This document shows positions 1 to 14,040 of a DNA stretch of 35,244 nucleotides, one piece after another. The position numbers were made by a program, and so were the translations under genes. Location of the stretch: the IMG/VR virus record IMGVR_UViG_2740892431_000022, one strand, 5' to 3'. The DNA comes from a virus. Taxonomy: Duplodnaviria; Heunggongvirae; Uroviricota; Caudoviricetes. The notes beneath the pieces were generated by a model. That model made no database searches, was not told the origin of the DNA, and saw nothing but the letters and a program-made list of their open reading frames with translations. Every line of letters starts with the position of its first letter. The first letter of the stretch is position 1.

Positions 1-751
1 GTGCAGCACGAGACAAAAATGGAAAACCAGAGCTGGTTGAAAAAACTCGCACGCCGCCTGGGGCCTGGTCATATCGTTAATCTCTGCTTTATCGTGGTAT
101 TGCTTTTTTCCACCTTGCTCACCTGGCGTGAAGTGGTGGTGCTGGAAGATGCCTATATCTCCAGCCAGCGTAATCATCTGGAAAACGTAGCCAACGCGCT
201 CGATAAGCATTTGCAGTATAACGTCGACAAACTGATCTTTTTGCGTAATGGCATGCGCGAAGCTCTCGTGGCGCCACTGGATTTCACCTCTCTGCGTAAT
301 GCCGTAACCGAGTTCGAACAGCATCGCGACGAGCACACCTGGCAAATCGAACTCAACCGACGGCGCACCCTGCCAGTCAATGGCGTATCGGATGCATTAG
401 TCAGCGAGGGGAATCTCCTGTCTCGCGAAAATGAAAGCCTCGACAATGAAATTACCGCTGCACTGGAAGTTGGTTACTTGCTGCGACTGGCGCACAACTC
501 CTCGTCGATGGTTGAACAGGCGGTGTATGTCTCGCGTGCTGGATTTTACGTTTCGACGCTGCCGACCTTGTTTACGCGCAATGTACCAACGCGTTATTAC
601 GGCTATGTCACCCAACCCTGGTTTATCGGCCATTCACAACGAGAAAATCGTCACCGCGCGGTACGCTGGTTCACTTCGCAACCGGAACACGCCAGCAATA
701 CTGAACCGCAGGTTACCGTCAGTGTTCCGGTAGACAGTAATAACTACTGGT
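1..751 (+). pseudogene. dgcQ: 5' fragment of a diguanylate cyclase sensor gene (DgcQ/YedQ-like), interrupted by prophage insertion
   Basis: N-terminal TM helix plus periplasmic domain matching my recollection of E. coli DgcQ up to ...VPVDSNNYW; the frame then runs into 13 unrelated codons ([13 protein letters not shown]) and a stop at 790-792; no second TM or GGDEF domain. Identity is recalled, not searched. Confidence 0.6.
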
Positions 752-800
752 TGATCAGACATGAGATAAATGAAGGGGGATCCGTGAGATAAATAACGAA
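752..800. repeat. Prophage terminal region with two direct copies of TGAGATAAAT (762-771, 785-794); candidate transposase-binding sites
   Basis: Direct 10-bp repeat spaced 23 bp immediately inside the putative end; a looser third copy GATAGATAAG lies at 858-867. Confidence 0.45.
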
Positions 801-874
801 TTGGAGTGGGTTAACATGGGTTCTGGTGAACAGAACTGAAATTCTTTTCCGCTATACGATAGATAAGTCGGGCA

Positions 875-904
875 TTGAAATCATCCTTCCTGGCAACTTA
901 GAAT
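875..904 (+). promoter_or_regulatory. Putative sigma70-type promoter TTGAAA-N18-TAGAAT
   Basis: TTGAAA at 875-880 and TAGAAT at 899-904, about 45 bp upstream of a small ORF that has an AAGGA ribosome-binding site. Confidence 0.3.
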
Positions 905-947: not shown

Positions 948-1109
948 ATGACTACTCAAAACAATAAGCATGACAGCCTGGATTACTCAGAAAAGCCCAA
1001 AAGCAAGCACATTGTGACGTTCGAGCGCGATTCCGGTAGAAAAGGAGAATCGTCTTCCTCTGCCAATAAAACCACTATGCCGGCAGCTCCTGCTCCAGGG
1101 AAAAAATAA
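948..1109 (+). CDS. Small hydrophilic hypothetical protein (53 aa)
   Basis: ATG at 948 preceded by AAGGA at 8-nt spacing; hand-translated as MTTQNNKHDSLDYSEKPKSKHIVTFERDSGRKGESSSSANKTTMPAAPAPGKK; below the ORF-track size cutoff; convergent with the 1113..1746 gene. Confidence 0.3.
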   Translation: MTTQNNKHDSLDYSEKPKSKHIVTFERDSGRKGESSSSANKTTMPAAPAPGKK

Positions 1110-1112
1110 ACA

Positions 1113-1746
1113 TCATTCATCGTTCGTTGCACGAACGCGCCTGATCTCCACTCTGGCAATCTGATCTGCTGGAATATAGGTTGCCAGAGCTCCCCAGTAC
1201 TTATCAACCACGCCTTTATACTCTTCCCATTCGTTACTTCCTGAAGGGCTGCTGTGCGTGACGTAAAGAACCATATCGCCTTTATTTCCCAGGGTAAACG
1301 GACCGTTAGGCCACTCTTCAAAGTTCCCTGGCAGCCGTGACATCATACCGGAACCATCGCGAAGAATCACTCTGACCTCGGTGACGCTGAAGCCTGTTTG
1401 ATCAAACATTGCCTGCCATGCTGAGCTGGTATTGTCAGACCATGAAATATCATTATTCCACAGTAATCTGTACATCCATTTGCGACCGTACCTGCGCCAC
1501 CACGCACCGCATGTAACGGCACACAGAAGTGCTGGGGGGGTTGCCAGCCAGGCATTCAGACCTGCCCACATAACAGCCTGGTAAGCCATCATTGCTGTCA
1601 GGCCAAAAATCAGCGAAGAAAAAGTCACCTCAATGGGTTTGTGGTGATCCTTCAGCCCCACATTCGCAATAAAATACCCAATATAGCCACTGGTCAGGGT
1701 CACCAGTGTTGCCCATGGCAGATTTAATAACGAAACGTCAAACATA
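1113..1746 (-). CDS. Polytopic membrane protein (about 3 TM helices plus a roughly 110-aa C-terminal domain), cargo gene at the prophage end
   Basis: ORF 1113..1823; start assigned to the ATG at 1746 (MFDVSLL...) preceded by GGGAGA; hydrophobic helices LPWATLVTLTSGYIGYFIANVGL, VTFSSLIFGLTAMMAYQAVMWAGL and WLATPPALLCAVTCGAWW; no family recognised. Confidence 0.7.
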
Positions 1747-1780
1747 TTTTCTCCCTGCATCCTGAATATTACATAGAGAG

Positions 1781-1813
1781 CATAAAAAAAGCACGGTAAA
1801 GGGTCTACCGTGC
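1781..1813 (-). terminator. Rho-independent terminator downstream of the Mor-like gene
   Basis: On the minus-strand RNA: 8-bp stem GCACGGUA/UACCGUGC (1792-1799 with 1806-1813), 6-nt loop, then a run of 7 U (plus-strand A-run 1785-1791). Confidence 0.7.
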
Positions 1814-1859
1814 TCTTATACAATAAGGAGATTTTTGAAAGGACTTTAACAAGCAGGAA

Positions 1860-2258
1860 TTATCTGGATTTGTTAACGTCTTTCGTCTCCTCTGGCAGAT
1901 CTTCATCAAACAACCTGCCCTGCATCCGATCCAGTTCTTCTTTTCTGACCCGCTTAACCACGCTGTAGACCCACTGAAGCGAAACACCAAAATTGCGGGC
2001 CAGTTCGTGGTGGTTGCGTCCGTTAAACTCCCTGAAGATTTCCCGGTCGCGCTGACTGACCTTCCATACCATGCCCATCGGGAAATAAACGTTTTGCCCG
2101 CCCCAGACCTGCATCATTCGGTTCGCGACGGCCTGACCAATCTGGTCGGCAATTGCGGGCTCAATATCAATAATCTCGCGAACGGTCTCAGAGGTATGCT
2201 GTGCCAGTTCCACCAGGAGTTCCGGCCCTTTACTTCGAAACTGATTCAGGTCGCTCAT
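1860..2258 (-). CDS. mor: Mor/C-family transcriptional activator (middle operon regulator-like)
   Basis: Family signature ...GGQNVYFPMG...RDREIFREFNGRNHHELARNFGVSLQWVYSVVKRVR; GGGAG ribosome-binding site upstream; last gene of the early operon. Confidence 0.88.
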   Translation of the reverse strand: MSDLNQFRSKGPELLVELAQHTSETVREIIDIEPAIADQIGQAVANRMMQVWGGQNVYFPMGMVWKVSQRDREIFREFNGRNHHELARNFGVSLQWVYSVVKRVRKEELDRMQGRLFDEDLPEETKDVNKSR

Positions 2259-10221: not shown

Positions 10222-10647
10222 GTGAATTTTGATTCTCTTTGCGCGTCGCGGTTCAAAGCTGAGCGTTCGCGGTTATCACTCAAGCAGGCTGAAGTAGCAG
10301 CCCTTTGTGGCGTTTCAAGAGAAATGTGGGGGAAATATGAACGAGGGGTTGCTGTTCCCGGAGGTGAGTTACTTGCAGCCTTTGCAAGAATTGGGGCCAA
10401 TGTACAGTTCATTCTTACCGGGGAGTCATCAGGTATAACTTTATCACGTGATGAAATGGAGTTACTGCAGCACTACCGGCAGGCACCATTACAGGTCAAA
10501 GGTTCAGTTTTGTCGGCCTTGACTACTGGCTCCTCCAGAGAACGGGCGGAACAGGTTATTCATGGAGATGTTCTGGGGAATGTTATCAAAGGTAACGTAA
10601 CCATAGGAACAGGTGGAATAATGAACAAAAATACCAAGAGAAGATGA
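10222..10647 (+). CDS. XRE-family HTH repressor-like protein
   Basis: HTH ...LSLKQAEVAALCGVSREMWGKYERG...; divergent from the ner-A-B operon; GTG at 10222 has GAGG 5 nt upstream; the ORF-track ATG at 10186 lies inside the operator palindrome (a leaderless start there is not excluded). Confidence 0.7.
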   Translation: MNFDSLCASRFKAERSRLSLKQAEVAALCGVSREMWGKYERGVAVPGGELLAAFARIGANVQFILTGESSGITLSRDEMELLQHYRQAPLQVKGSVLSALTTGSSRERAEQVIHGDVLGNVIKGNVTIGTGGIMNKNTKRR

Positions 10648-11630
10648 GTAAAGAGAAGCAAACAGTTAACGGGGATGTGGGTAACGTTGTCAGCGGTGAT
10701 GTTACCATTCATAACTATTCTGCTGACATACTTCCTTCGGCCCAGCAACCAATTTCGTTGCTGCAAAAACGCGATTTACACAGATTGATGGATGAATTGG
10801 TTGATCTGGGGGAAAGTAAGCGCGAGCTATGGATGACGATCCACACGAAACTTAATACCAAAACAGTTAATGAAATGACTGCGGCTGATTATCATGGTGC
10901 GGTTGAGATCCTTCAGAGATATGCACAACAGATCCAGAATATGAAGGACTGTAATCTTCTGGTCAGCAAAATAATGGCGCTTACTGACCCTGGGTATCGT
11001 CTTGACCGTGACAGATACTGTCTGAAGCATTTCGGTACAACCCATCTTAAAGGCCTAGACAAAGAGCAGTTGCAGGCTGTGTTTGGTTATTTTGATGATC
11101 TGCTGAATATTCGTGATGAGAGTAAAACTCTATCACCTCCATCGGAAAGCGGTGCAAAATCAGTCGCAACTGTACCAACCAGAAGCTGGAAGCCTCATGT
11201 AGTAGTGTTGGGGGGAGTGTTAGTTCTTGTAGCAATATTTTTCGTGGGAATGATTGTGTTCGCTGGTAAATGGGGAAATGCCAAAGCAGTAGCTTCTACT
11301 GAAACCAGCGTTTTTAACATTAAAACCAACGATAAAATAATAGAAGATTCCATCCCCGCACTGCGCAGCATGTTTCCAGGGTTAAATAAGTACTCAGATG
11401 ATTTCCATTCGGTTTCAAGCTACAAGCAAAAAACGGGCTGGCATACCCTTAAATTTACTGTATCAGCAAAGGCATCCGTCCCCGAAAATTATAGTGTTAA
11501 GGGCAAGGTTTGTTACATTAACATAAGCCCTGATGGTAGTTATGCTCGGGTTTTGACTGCTCCATGTCGTTCACTGCTACTTGATCAGCAAAGCACTCCT
11601 GACAGTAAATACCGTTTTATTCTTAAATAG
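10644..11630 (+). CDS. Single-pass membrane protein (328 aa), unknown function
   Basis: ATG overlaps the repressor stop (ATGA); roughly 180-aa N-terminal domain, one TM (HVVVLGGVLVLVAIFFVGMIVFAG), roughly 120-aa C-terminal domain with two Cys; sampled GC about 33-47 percent. Confidence 0.75.
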   Translation: MSKEKQTVNGDVGNVVSGDVTIHNYSADILPSAQQPISLLQKRDLHRLMDELVDLGESKRELWMTIHTKLNTKTVNEMTAADYHGAVEILQRYAQQIQNMKDCNLLVSKIMALTDPGYRLDRDRYCLKHFGTTHLKGLDKEQLQAVFGYFDDLLNIRDESKTLSPPSESGAKSVATVPTRSWKPHVVVLGGVLVLVAIFFVGMIVFAGKWGNAKAVASTETSVFNIKTNDKIIEDSIPALRSMFPGLNKYSDDFHSVSSYKQKTGWHTLKFTVSAKASVPENYSVKGKVCYINISPDGSYARVLTAPCRSLLLDQQSTPDSKYRFILK

Positions 11631-12339: not shown

Positions 12340-12816
12340 TTAAGGATTATCCGGGGCGTTTTCCTGTTTGCCGTACTTCGGAGACGAACAACATTCTGTT
12401 GGCTGACCGGTGAGTTTACGTAACTCCTTCATGAGCAGCTCCTGATCGTAAACTGTCATCAGTGCCGCAATGGTGGCATGCAGTGCATCGGGCAGTATCC
12501 AGGGTTGCCGGCCCGTGGGGCATATAACATCCAGCAGCTCATTCGTCCGACAGATACGCTCCTCGCCGTATGACAACAGGCCCTGTCCCGTGTATTCCTC
12601 TAGCCTGATCACTGTGCCACCCCGTGGCTTCTGCCAGGTCGTCAGATCTTCGCCATTCATACGGCGCTCATTCTCCACGTCAGCAGCATCGACAATGACG
12701 CTGTTTCCGAGTTCCTGTTTCACCATCTCTTCTATCCGCGCCAGTACGTAACTTTTACCGCTGCCCACAGGACCGGACACAGTGACAGTGATGACCGGAT
12801 TCAGTGTGTGCGTCAT
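12340..12816 (-). CDS. Small P-loop NTPase or kinase-like protein (158 aa)
   Basis: Walker A GPVGSGKS at residues 15-22, then VIVDAAD; AGGAGA ribosome-binding site; opposite strand to both neighbours. Confidence 0.75.
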   Translation of the reverse strand: MTHTLNPVITVTVSGPVGSGKSYVLARIEEMVKQELGNSVIVDAADVENERRMNGEDLTTWQKPRGGTVIRLEEYTGQGLLSYGEERICRTNELLDVICPTGRQPWILPDALHATIAALMTVYDQELLMKELRKLTGQPTECCSSPKYGKQENAPDNP

Positions 12817-12877: not shown

Positions 12878-12927
12878 CTTAACGCGCTTTAAAATCCTTC
12901 GCGCCCTGTATTTGTGATGCTGTCTCC
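12878..12927 (+). promoter_or_regulatory. Putative late promoter for the lysis operon
   Basis: CTTAA (12878-12882), TTAAAATC (12889-12896) and CTGTCTCC (12920-12927); the same arrangement recurs upstream of two other late operons. Confidence 0.4.
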
Positions 12928-12946
12928 ACCAAACGAGGAGACACAC

Positions 12947-13297
12947 ATGAAAAACCTGAAAAAATTCATTCCCCCTGTTAAAAAACCTCGCCTCAGCGGC
13001 TGGCTGCTGACCTCAGTGCTGTTGCTGGGCACCATCGCTCTGGTCTCACCACAGCAGCTGCCTGTTGTGATCTACAAGCTGGCACTCATCACGCTGGCAG
13101 CAGTGCTGGGTTACTGGCTTGACCGTTCGCTCTTCCCCAAAGCCCGTCCCGGTCAGTACCTGAAACATGACGACAGGCTGATGGCTGAAGGGCGTTTCCC
13201 GGTACAGACCGGCCTTCACCTGGTGTTTTCTGCTGCGTTAATCCGCCGTGCACTGATTGTTGCAGCGGTCTGCCTGGCTGTTGCGATGGGGCTTTAA
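12947..13297 (+). CDS. Putative holin (3 TM, 116 aa)
   Basis: GAGGAG ribosome-binding site; three hydrophobic helices; immediately upstream of the endolysin. Confidence 0.6.
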   Translation: MKNLKKFIPPVKKPRLSGWLLTSVLLLGTIALVSPQQLPVVIYKLALITLAAVLGYWLDRSLFPKARPGQYLKHDDRLMAEGRFPVQTGLHLVFSAALIRRALIVAAVCLAVAMGL

Positions 13298-13299
13298 TC

Positions 13300-14040
13300 A
13301 TGAACTGGCCGCAGATCACCTGGATTGTATGCATGTCCCTGAAACTGGCTTTCGAAGCCTTTCGGGTCTTCATCAGAACCGAACGCCTGTCAGTCCGCGC
13401 CGGGACCTTTCTGGTTCATATGGCATGGGTATTCTTTGTCGCAATGTTGCTCTGGTGTGGCGGCTTTTTCAGCCAGGCATGCGCAGCACAACCTCCGCAG
13501 GCTGCGCTGCAGTATCGCGATGATGTGATCCGTAATGCCCGGCTTGAATGGGGACTGTCTGCGCCGGTGGCCGATTTCGCCGCGCAACTGCATCAGGAAA
13601 GCGGCTGGCGACCTGATGCGATCTCGCCGGCTGGCGCTCAGGGACTGGCGCAGTTCATGCCTGCCACTGCCGACTGGATAAGCCAGTTGATACCGATGCT
13701 GAGCAGTCGTGAGCCGTTTAATCCGGCATGGGCTATCCGGGCGCTGGTCAGCTATGACCGCTGGCTGTGGCAGCGTGTCAGCGCCGCCAGTGACTGCGAG
13801 CGTATGGCCATGACACTGTCGGGCTATAACGGTGGTCTGGGCTGGGTACAACGGGACAGGCGGCTTGCATCACAGAAAGGTCTGGACAGCACCCGCTGGT
13901 TCGGACATGTCGCCACGGTGAATGCCGGACGCAATGCGGCCAGCTGGCGGGAGAACCGCCATTATCCGCAGCGCATCCTGCGCGAACTGGCACCGCGATA
14001 TCTCACATGGGGAGGCAGCAGTTGTGTGGCATCTGGTTAA
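13300..14040 (+). CDS. Endolysin, lytic transglycosylase with an N-terminal signal-anchor (SAR-like) segment
   Basis: SLT-type motif ...LHQESGWRPDAISPAGAQGLAQFMPATA...; hydrophobic N-terminal segment WVFFVAMLLWCGGFF. Confidence 0.8.
   Translation: MNWPQITWIVCMSLKLAFEAFRVFIRTERLSVRAGTFLVHMAWVFFVAMLLWCGGFFSQACAAQPPQAALQYRDDVIRNARLEWGLSAPVADFAAQLHQESGWRPDAISPAGAQGLAQFMPATADWISQLIPMLSSREPFNPAWAIRALVSYDRWLWQRVSAASDCERMAMTLSGYNGGLGWVQRDRRLASQKGLDSTRWFGHVATVNAGRNAASWRENRHYPQRILRELAPRYLTWGGSSCVASG

What the first reader, a model, noticed from the sequence alone, without database searches (positions are those of the whole stretch)
1113..1823. Membrane-protein gene with its own terminator and promoter occupies the slot where Mu carries late activator C
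In Mu, mor is followed by the middle promoter and gene C. Here the Mor-like gene is followed by a strong terminator (1781-1813), an AT-rich promoter-like stretch (1762-1785 on the minus strand, TGTAATATT-type -10) and a 211-aa polytopic membrane protein at the very end of the prophage. This is the typical arrangement of a lysogenic-conversion or exclusion gene; no C-like second Mor/C-family gene is present in the window.
Basis: partly seen in the sequence, partly recalled or inferred. Interest (0 to 1): 0.65.

Follow-up and report, generated by a model that had tools for sequence, protein, structure and literature searches.

The report
Two-gene membrane cassette at prophage end
The gene is real, but it is one half of an optional, uncharacterised two-gene cassette (a small membrane protein plus a tiny proline-rich peptide read from the opposite strand) carried by this Mu-like prophage and by many unrelated mobile elements; it does not replace a missing phage regulator.

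Summary
The window holds a BcepMu-like transposable prophage inserted in E. coli dgcQ, with its end at about 752. After mor (1860-2258, minus) comes a strong intrinsic terminator (1784-1817) and then a 210-aa gene (1113-1745, minus; ATG at 1745, not TTG at 1823). The protein is predicted to have three N-terminal transmembrane helices and a cytoplasmic Sm/LSm-like small beta-barrel. It has no curated family, only phrog_12870 and a weak link to DUF6338.

The "slot of C" idea fails. BcepMu also has a single Mor/C gene as the last gene at its end.

The accessory-gene idea holds. Of 5426 complete E. coli genomes, 640 carry this mor-gemA, 532 have the empty junction and only 118-130 carry the gene. 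Divergent alleles sit in otherwise 97-100% identical phages.

New here: a 53-aa hydrophilic ORF (948-1109, plus) abuts the gene tail-to-tail. It has a conserved sigma-70 promoter (875-904) and ends in a Pro-rich, basic motif. This partner recurs next to homologues in gamma- and alpha-proteobacteria and a Synechococcus phage, in unrelated contexts.

Most likely it is a membrane effector with a peptide or antisense regulator, serving exclusion, abortive infection or addiction. That function is inferred, not shown.

The parts
752..800 (.). Prophage end (junction with the interrupted dgcQ), with two direct copies of TGAGATAAAT (762-771 and 785-794) that are presumably transposase-binding end repeats
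   Evidence: Matches in other genomes, at many different host sites, begin at window 752/753. Positions 752-791 align with the end of the JJ1886, CFSAN051542 and PhiKM prophages. Sequence read. The transposase-binding role is inferred.
819..837 (+). Terminator-like hairpin facing inward, which may block read-in from the host gene
   Evidence: Scan hit (7 pairs, weak T tail). It is not clearly conserved in relatives. Weak evidence.
875..904 (+). Sigma-70 promoter of the small ORF: TTGAAA, 18 nt, TAGAAT
   Evidence: 10/12 match to consensus. Both hexamers are kept in the window, L005, L006, L007, L008 and L010 while surrounding bases differ.
948..1109 (+). Partner gene: a 53-aa hydrophilic peptide (alternative ATG at 939 gives 56 aa) ending ...MPAAPAPGKK, convergent with the membrane gene, with 3 nt between the two stop codons
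   Evidence: Full-length match to phrog_15726, E=1.2e-41. Conserved tail-to-tail partner in about 28 non-redundant loci. Annotated as a hypothetical protein in RefSeq.
1113..1745 (-). 210-aa protein with three predicted transmembrane helices (about 9-29, 40-61, 65-84), a basic juxtamembrane helix (WRRYGRKW) and a C-terminal Sm/LSm-like beta domain (about 108-205)
1751..1755 (-). Shine-Dalgarno GGGAG, 5 nt before ATG 1745
   Evidence: Sequence. A GGAG-like element sits at the same place in homologous loci.
1765..1773 (-). TGTAATATT, a candidate extended -10 element for the membrane gene (unverified)
   Evidence: Sequence only. Not called by the promoter scan and not conserved across lineages.
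1784..1817 (-). Intrinsic terminator ending the early (mor) operon
   Evidence: A hairpin plus T-run is kept in 8 divergent loci with two different stem sequences. The arm sequences occur only here in the window.
1860..2258 (-). mor, the single Mor/C-family activator and last core gene of the early operon
   Evidence: PF08765, E=3.6e-43. It is the only Mor-like ORF in the window. BcepMu gp01 occupies the same position.
1900..2180 (.). Mosaic joint: the zone inside the 3' part of mor where identity to related prophages breaks or decays
   Evidence: Homology to PhiKM, JJ1886 and KP12 stops at 1900-1904. Against L049, identity is 100% down to about 2180 and falls to 55% by 1945.

Best explanation
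Shown. Positions 800-1860 hold an optional two-gene cassette inserted between the last core early gene (mor) and the end of a BcepMu-like transposable prophage. The cassette encodes (a) a 210-aa protein predicted to have three transmembrane helices, N-terminus out and C-terminus in, with a cytoplasmic Sm/SH3-like small beta-barrel, and (b) a convergent 53-aa hydrophilic peptide with short conserved motifs ([DN]-[YF]-[ST]-x-x-P and a C-terminal Pro-rich stretch ending mostly in a basic residue, typically K-K). The peptide gene has a conserved strong sigma-70 promoter. The two stop codons lie within -20 to +7 nt of each other in every lineage, so the two transcripts must overlap at their 3' ends. 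The membrane gene is shielded from the early operon by a conserved terminator.

Inferred. In the lysogen the peptide gene is transcribed constitutively. Its product, and/or its antisense read-through, keeps the membrane protein low or inactive. I suggest the Pro-rich basic tail binds the beta-barrel domain. When this control is lost, for example through infection, host shut-off or loss of the element, or when early-operon read-through raises expression, the membrane protein oligomerises through its Sm-like domain and perturbs the inner membrane. The highly conserved polar face of TM1 is a candidate pore lining. The benefit would be superinfection exclusion, abortive infection, or stabilisation of the element. 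The cassette is not a substitute for Mu C.
For: - Presence/absence polymorphism in near-identical prophages: 532 empty junctions, 118-130 with the cassette, among 640 genomes carrying this mor-gemA.
- Allelic exchange with the joint inside mor.
- BcepMu has nothing after its Mor gene.
- The partner peptide is found tail-to-tail in about 28 of 32 non-redundant loci, from Enterobacterales, Rhizobiales, Sphingobium, metagenomic relatives at 26-33% identity, and at the opposite (3') end of the linear Synechococcus phage Ssp-JY41 record, which adjoins the membrane gene only if that genome is circular or permuted.
- A peptide HMM hit no ORF other than the one abutting the membrane gene, in all ORFs of all loci.
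- Contexts are unrelated: after Mor, inside head/tail modules, beside serine recombinases, and near a reverse transcriptase.
- The peptide promoter hexamers are conserved in 6 divergent loci.
- The positive-inside charge pattern puts the beta domain in the cytoplasm, where a peptide with no signal sequence would also be.
- TM1 and the DHHK loop are the most conserved part, with column identity 0.92-0.94.
- Tandem copies of the peptide ORF in L020, L069, L015 and Ssp-JY41 argue for a protein-level role.
Against: - There is no functional evidence of any kind.
- No hit in PADLOC, NCBIfam or Pfam for either protein, and no literature on DUF6338.
- The hydrophobicity of the helices is only moderate (KD 1.1-1.3), so membrane insertion is predicted, not shown.
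- A few lineages keep an intact membrane gene without a recognisable partner (L009/L054, L011, L072/73), which is awkward for a strict toxin-antitoxin model.
- In Enterobacterales the gene has stayed next to Mor while core genes diverged to 45-78% identity, which also fits a phage-cycle role.
Confidence: 0.4

Rival explanations
1. The membrane protein acts in the phage's own lytic cycle, for example as a holin-like or lysis-timing factor or another inner-membrane helper. It would be made by partial read-through of the early-operon terminator, with the convergent peptide gene tuning it.
For: The gene is co-oriented with the early operon and separated from it only by a terminator. No conserved promoter of its own was found. 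In Enterobacterales it always follows Mor, even where core genes are only 45-78% identical. In other phages it is co-oriented with late structural genes. The three-helix region gives weak Foldseek matches to class III (LydA-type) holins at E 0.02-0.5.
Against: It is absent from about 80% of near-identical E. coli prophages and from BcepMu, PhiKM and KP12. The phage has its own holin (12914-13297, phrog_1528) with further ORFs directly downstream (13300-14040 onward) that may complete a lysis cassette but were not scanned. The cassette also occurs beside recombinases with no phage genes nearby. The holin matches are not significant, and the protein is larger than holins and carries a folded cytoplasmic domain.
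Confidence: 0.2
2. A lysogenic-conversion or superinfection-exclusion membrane protein that acts alone. The small ORF would be an unrelated or purely regulatory neighbour.
For: The slot is variable, the gene sits at the prophage end, and an upstream terminator insulates it. Some lineages keep the membrane gene without the peptide.
Against: The peptide gene accompanies the membrane gene across phyla and contexts, with conserved protein motifs, tandem copies and a conserved promoter. No similarity to known Sie, Imm, Gtr or Cor-type proteins turned up in PHROGs, Pfam or PADLOC.
Confidence: 0.2
3. The gene fills the functional slot of Mu C, that is, it is needed for late transcription in place of a second Mor/C protein.
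For: Only its position after mor and the absence of a second Mor/C ORF.
Against: It has no DNA-binding or Mor domain. BcepMu and 532 E. coli genomes manage with Mor alone and an empty slot. It is predicted to be a membrane protein.
Confidence: 0.02

Closest known systems
Phage 'morons' and prophage accessory cargo genes (for example HK97 gp15, P22 SieA, T4 Imm as membrane-located exclusion proteins)
   Same: Present or absent between near-identical phages. Insulated from neighbouring operons. Located at a module boundary or genome end. Small predicted inner-membrane protein. GC slightly below the phage average (46-50% against 54%).
   Different: No sequence or profile similarity to any of them. 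It is a two-gene convergent unit. The terminator is upstream rather than downstream. Its own promoter is unproven. No exclusion phenotype is known.
Lambda RexA/RexB and other prophage two-component abortive-infection systems with a membrane effector
   Same: Prophage cargo that combines a membrane protein with a cytoplasmic partner. The logic proposed here is that a partner controls a membrane-perturbing protein.
   Different: No homology. RexB has four transmembrane helices and no beta-barrel. RexA is a large sensor, not a 53-aa peptide. The rex genes are co-directional with cI.
Toxin-antitoxin pairs with membrane toxins and 3'-overlapping convergent antitoxin transcripts (type I systems such as txpA/RatA and bsrG/SR4; CptA/YgfX-CptB)
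   Same: Tail-to-tail arrangement that forces 3' transcript overlap. The small partner has a strong conserved promoter while the membrane gene is weakly driven. Carried on mobile elements.
   Different: The membrane protein is 210 aa with a folded domain, whereas type I toxins are under 60 aa. The partner is conserved at the protein level. Three relatives gave only chance-level hits to Cpta_toxin (E=0.037).
MscS-type channels, and TM-plus-beta-barrel effectors such as CBASS Cap15 or short NfeD proteins
   Same: Overall architecture: N-terminal transmembrane helices (three, N-out/C-in, as in MscS) followed by a cytoplasmic small beta-barrel of a type that forms rings in Sm/Hfq and MscS.
Pfam DUF6338 (PF19865) and PHROG 12870 / 15726
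   Same: phrog_12870 and phrog_15726 match the two proteins over their full length. 18 of 33 relatives give sub-threshold to weak DUF6338 hits.
   Different: The window protein itself gives no DUF6338 hit at E up to 1. All three families have unknown function, and DUF6338 is named in only one paper, in passing.

Membership tests
Mor/C family of late-transcription activators (the 'slot of C' reading) | Mor domain (PF08765) with a C-terminal helix-turn-helix | tested here: not met
   The 210-aa protein has no Pfam hit at E up to 0.1. A Mor HMM built from 8 sequences hits only ORF 1860-2258 in the window.
Moron (accessory gene unit in a phage genome) | Present in some and absent from other closely related phages | tested here: met
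   532 genomes have the empty junction, 118-130 have the gene, and 6 have a Gp27-N-like gene. PhiKM, KP12 and BcepMu lack it.
Moron (accessory gene unit in a phage genome) | Own promoter and terminator allowing expression from the repressed prophage | tested here: inconclusive
   The upstream terminator is real and conserved. The membrane gene has only an unconserved extended -10 candidate. The partner ORF has a conserved sigma-70 promoter. No downstream terminator was found for either gene.
Pfam DUF6338 (PF19865) | Score above the gathering threshold (26.5 bits) | tested here: not met
   The window protein gives no hit. 18 of 33 relatives give weak hits, best E=1.4e-6. It is a distant relative at most.
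PHROG 12870 (unknown function) | Full-length profile match | tested here: met
   E=1.9e-133, residues 1-210 against profile positions 1-210.
Holins | Small (about 60-150 aa) transmembrane protein encoded next to the endolysin, with a charged C-terminal tail and no folded soluble domain | tested here: not met
   The protein is 210 aa with a beta domain of about 100 aa. It lies 11 kb from the phage holin at 12914-13297. Foldseek holin matches have E at or above 0.02.
MscS-like mechanosensitive channels | MS_channel domains: pore helix TM3, Sm-like beta domain and alpha-beta domain | tested here: not met
Sm/LSm-like small beta-barrel fold (C-terminal domain) | N-terminal helix followed by a strongly bent five-stranded sheet, with structural similarity to Sm proteins | tested here: met
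Type II toxin-antitoxin module | Two small genes co-transcribed in one operon | tested here: not met
   The genes are convergent in every locus.
Type I toxin-antitoxin module | Small hydrophobic toxin under 60 aa, repressed by an overlapping antisense RNA | tested here: inconclusive
   The toxin-size criterion is not met (210 aa). Forced 3' overlap of convergent transcripts follows from the geometry (gap of -20 to +7 nt), but the RNAs were not observed. The partner is conserved as a protein.
Known anti-phage defence systems (PADLOC-DB v2) | Profile match to a catalogued defence protein | tested here: not met
   No hits for either protein at E up to 0.1.

The most novel reading that the evidence does not exclude
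The pair is a previously undescribed, widely mobile two-component membrane system. A membrane protein with three transmembrane helices forms rings through its Sm-like domain, and its pore or membrane activity is gated by a disordered peptide that docks its [YF]-[ST]-x-x-P motif and Pro-rich, mostly basic C-terminal tail onto the small beta-barrel. Tail-to-tail transcription adds antisense control. It would act as a new kind of abortive-infection, exclusion or addiction module across proteobacteria and cyanobacterial phages.
Probability: 0.3. Interest if true: 0.7.

Novelty: new variant of a known kind. Interest (0 to 1): 0.5.

Why it matters
About one in five prophages of this type in E. coli carry the cassette, and these prophages occur in about 12% of complete E. 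coli genomes, including ST131-type clinical strains. Relatives form roughly 500 sequence clusters on phages and other mobile elements in several phyla, yet neither protein has a name or a tested function.

The pair has a conserved convergent layout, a conserved promoter for the peptide, and divergent alleles in otherwise identical phages. This is the pattern expected of a conflict system such as phage exclusion, abortive infection or addiction. If confirmed, it would add a new membrane-effector architecture and a new type of peptide regulator to the catalogue of prophage-encoded defences.

The analysis also corrects the Mu-based reading of BcepMu-type genomes. One Mor-type activator at the genome end is normal for this group, and the space between it and the end is a cargo slot.

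Tried and rejected
- **Family searches.** Pfam, NCBIfam and PADLOC scans of both proteins gave nothing. A profile search of PDB sequences gave only chance hits at E of 0.66 or higher. Rfam on 600-2400 gave only chance hits at E about 0.8.
- **Fold searches.** The AFDB50 library was unavailable. BFVD gave one uncharacterised full-length match (E=1.4e-4) and non-significant holin matches.
- **Metagenome scans.** I sampled distant relatives one at a time instead.
- **Domain fusions.** Longer family members showed no informative fusion.
- **Terminator arms as a Mor-binding site.** Rejected: the arm sequences occur only once in the window.
- **SD-sequestering pairing in a read-through transcript.** The CCUGC/GCAGG pairing seen is not conserved in L006, so I dropped it.
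- **Charge complementarity of the two C-termini.** Not seen; the membrane protein's tail is usually basic too.
- **KK-stop as the T-run of a terminator for the membrane gene.** Rejected: the nearest hairpin is 13 nt away, and alpha-proteobacterial copies may not give a T-run there (Lys codon use inferred, not checked).
- **Polyproline stalling as the conserved feature.** Weakened: several peptides, including the window's, have no PPP.
- **PhiKM's 114-aa CDS as a slot occupant.** Rejected: it lies beyond the phage end in a permuted record.
- **Literature.** Searches found no paper on this pair or on DUF6338 function.

Full report
**Setting**

The window begins in E. coli dgcQ (CHASE7 domain). 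The gene is interrupted at about 752/753 by a transposable prophage. In other complete E. coli genomes the same sequence starts at window 752/753 but lies in many different host genes, including gudD, zraS, yfiB, ptsP and mdfA. That pattern is expected for random transposition.

- The minus strand from 9957 to 1860 carries an early operon: transposase A, B, Gam, a DUF2786/DUF7168 protein, GemA (PF06252) and Mor (PF08765, E=3.6e-43).
- The plus strand from 10186 carries a repressor-like gene, the holin and the structural genes.
- This is the layout of Burkholderia phage BcepMu. The closest deposited phage, Escherichia phage PhiKM, is classified as a Bcepmuvirus.

**Checking the observation**

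- **The gene.** The mechanical ORF 1113-1823 starts at a TTG and would run through the terminator. The real gene is 1113-1745 (210 aa). It has ATG at 1745 and GGGAG five bases upstream, and all homologues share its N-terminus.
- **The terminator.** The terminator is real. Its arms are 1791-1798 and 1806-1813, followed by seven T on the minus strand. A hairpin plus T-run is kept at the same position in eight enterobacterial prophages whose core proteins are only 45-78% identical. Those prophages use two different stem sequences, which argues that the structure is functional. It ends the early operon, so it is upstream of the gene rather than belonging to it.
- **The proposed promoter.** TGTAATATT (1773-1765) could be an extended -10. 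It has no -35, the scan did not call it, and it is not conserved between lineages.
- **A second Mor/C gene.** A Mor HMM finds no second Mor/C ORF in the window.

**Why the "slot of C" framing fails**

In BcepMu the single Mor/C homologue gp01 is the last gene at the genome end, with nothing after it. Having one activator in this position is therefore normal for the group.

**The slot is variable**

Counts below are among 5426 complete E. coli genomes.

| Slot state | Genomes |
|---|---|
| Carry this mor-gemA segment | 640 |
| Phage end directly joined to mor (empty slot, as in JJ1886 and PhiKM) | 532 |
| Carry the membrane gene | 118-130 |
| Carry a 109-aa gene with the N-terminal part of Mu Gp27 (as in KP12) | 6 |

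- Homology to the empty-slot phages stops at window 1900-1904, inside the last codons of mor.
- IMG/VR prophages L044, L049, L050 and L058 have early genes 97-100% identical to the window. Their Mor is only 78-85% identical and their membrane protein only 68-72%.
- Against L049, DNA identity is 100% down to about 2180 and decays through mor. It is 82-88% over the half of the gene that encodes the transmembrane helices and 45-75% over the other half. It falls to about 40% over the small ORF and rises again to 78% at the phage end.
- The cassette is therefore exchanged as a unit and is dispensable.

**The protein**

- It has no Pfam, NCBIfam or PADLOC hit. It matches phrog_12870 (unknown function) over its full length.
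- Its relatives number 69 clusters at 90% identity and 501 at 50% identity, nearly all 200-215 aa long.
- Eighteen of 33 aligned relatives hit DUF6338 weakly. No functional literature on that family was found.
- AF2 with the 33-sequence alignment gives pLDDT 83.5. The model has helices at 11-27, 37-60 and 65-97, then a beta domain at 119-205.
- The helices are uncharged but only moderately hydrophobic. Charge distribution predicts N-out/C-in, so the beta domain would be cytoplasmic: no K or R at the N-terminus or in loop 2, two in loop 1, and five just after helix 3.
- The most conserved segment is TM1 plus the following loop (LPWATLVTLxxGYxGYxxANVGxxDHHK). It has a polar stripe on one face.

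**The partner gene**

Between the membrane gene and the phage end lies a plus-strand ORF (948-1109, or 939-1109). It encodes a hydrophilic 53-aa peptide ending MPAAPAPGKK and matches phrog_15726. Its stop codon is 3 nt from the stop of the membrane gene.

An equivalent convergent small ORF abuts or overlaps the membrane gene's stop (-20 to +7 nt) in these places:
- Citrobacter, Serratia, Symbiopectobacterium and Salmonella prophages;
- alpha-proteobacterial loci (Rhizobiales, Afipia, Bradyrhizobium, Devosia, Pseudochrobactrum, Ensifer, Sphingobium);
- four of five sampled metagenomic relatives at 26-33% identity;
- probably Synechococcus phage Ssp-JY41, where matching ORFs lie at the other end of the linear record. 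They would adjoin the gene only if the genome is circular or permuted.

All these peptides are 38-60 aa and lack any hydrophobic segment. They share a [DN]-[YF]-[ST]-x-x-P motif and a Pro-rich C-terminus that usually ends in K-K (K/R). Some alleles instead end in D or N-D (PPSRD, PLDND, PAPDKD). Several loci carry two or three tandem copies.

An HMM built from 15 of these peptides was searched against every ORF of at least 25 aa in all loci. It hit only the ORF at this position.

The partner is missing in insect-symbiont prophages (L009/L054, L011, and L023 where the membrane gene is a pseudogene) and in L072/73.

The contexts differ completely between lineages:
- after Mor in Enterobacterales;
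- within head, tail or baseplate modules (L016, L018, L021, L070);
- beside serine recombinases (L013, L017, L024);
- near a reverse transcriptase (L012).

The conserved unit is therefore the gene pair.

**Regulatory anatomy**

- The peptide gene has a promoter TTGAAA-18-TAGAAT at 875-904. Both hexamers are retained in six divergent enterobacterial loci while neighbouring bases vary.
- No comparable conservation exists upstream of the membrane gene.
- There is no room for a terminator between the two stop codons, so the two transcripts must overlap at their 3' ends. This follows from the geometry and was not observed directly.

**Interpretation**

Shown:
- This is an optional, mobile, two-gene cassette placed in a cargo slot between mor and the phage end.
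- It is shielded from the early operon by a terminator.
- The small gene has a conserved promoter.

Inferred:
- The peptide, and/or its antisense transcript, restrains a membrane-active protein.
- The Sm-like domain of that protein would drive oligomerisation.
- The system would serve exclusion, abortive infection or element stabilisation.

I put about 0.4 on this class of mechanism, and much less on the specific idea that the Pro-rich tail docks on the beta-barrel.

The main rival is a role in the phage's own lytic cycle through terminator read-through. Co-orientation with phage operons and the long association with Mor favour it. Dispensability, the presence of the phage's own holin at 12914-13297, and non-phage contexts count against it.

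**Comparison with known systems**

By layout the cassette resembles prophage morons, Rex-like two-component abortive-infection systems, and type I toxin-antitoxin pairs with 3'-overlapping transcripts. By architecture it resembles MscS, Cap15 or NfeD (transmembrane helices plus a small beta-barrel). It meets the defining criteria of none of these (see the membership table). It is best filed as a new variant of prophage accessory cargo whose function is untested.

Noticed in passing
window 1-792: The diguanylate cyclase gene dgcQ (yedQ), a cellulose and biofilm regulator, is interrupted by the prophage after about codon 250. Five complete genomes in the collection share exactly this insertion (H5-H9).
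   Followed up: partly
window 12340-12816 (minus strand): A 158-aa ORF with a P-loop-like N-terminus lies antisense within the plus-strand region just upstream of the holin. It matches phrog_3787 and gives weak AAA/ABC/HerA-type hits. It looks like a second cargo gene.
   Followed up: partly
window 10644-11630 (plus strand): A 328-aa protein follows the repressor-like gene. It matches phrog_10002 over its full length and has weak N-terminal similarity to the flagellar regulator Flk and to a PHROG 'moron membrane protein'. Its function is unknown.
   Followed up: no
window 1900-2180 (inside mor): The recombination joint for cassette exchange lies inside the 3' part of mor. As a result the C-terminal tail of Mor differs between slot states (132 aa here, 129 aa in JJ1886), and Mor is 78-85% identical in phages that are otherwise 97-100% identical.
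   Followed up: yes
L013 6789-7313, L017 6791-7342, L024 8802-9272: In Afipia and Bradyrhizobium a conserved 156-183-aa protein with no Pfam match lies directly upstream of the peptide gene on the same strand. It may be a third component in that lineage. A serine recombinase or HTH_7 gene precedes the membrane gene there.
   Followed up: partly
L012 7129-8460: A 443-aa reverse transcriptase (RVT_1, E=3.9e-21) lies about 500 bp from the cassette in a Rhizobiales genome. It could be a defence-type reverse transcriptase or a group II intron.
   Followed up: no
L020 2008-2339; L069; L075 (Synechococcus phage Ssp-JY41, record end): The Pro-rich peptide ORF occurs as two or three tandem copies in some loci.
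   Followed up: partly
L030 (E. coli FORC_031, NZ_CP013190.1 1930390-1936185): Here the cassette, mor and gemA sit next to a CP4-44-like cbtA/cbeA region. The early genes appear rearranged, with DUF3102 directly after small ORFs, so this is probably a deleted prophage remnant that kept the cassette.
   Followed up: no
window 819-837: A hairpin with a weak T tail faces inward just inside the phage end. It could insulate the prophage from host read-through but is not clearly conserved in relatives.
   Followed up: partly
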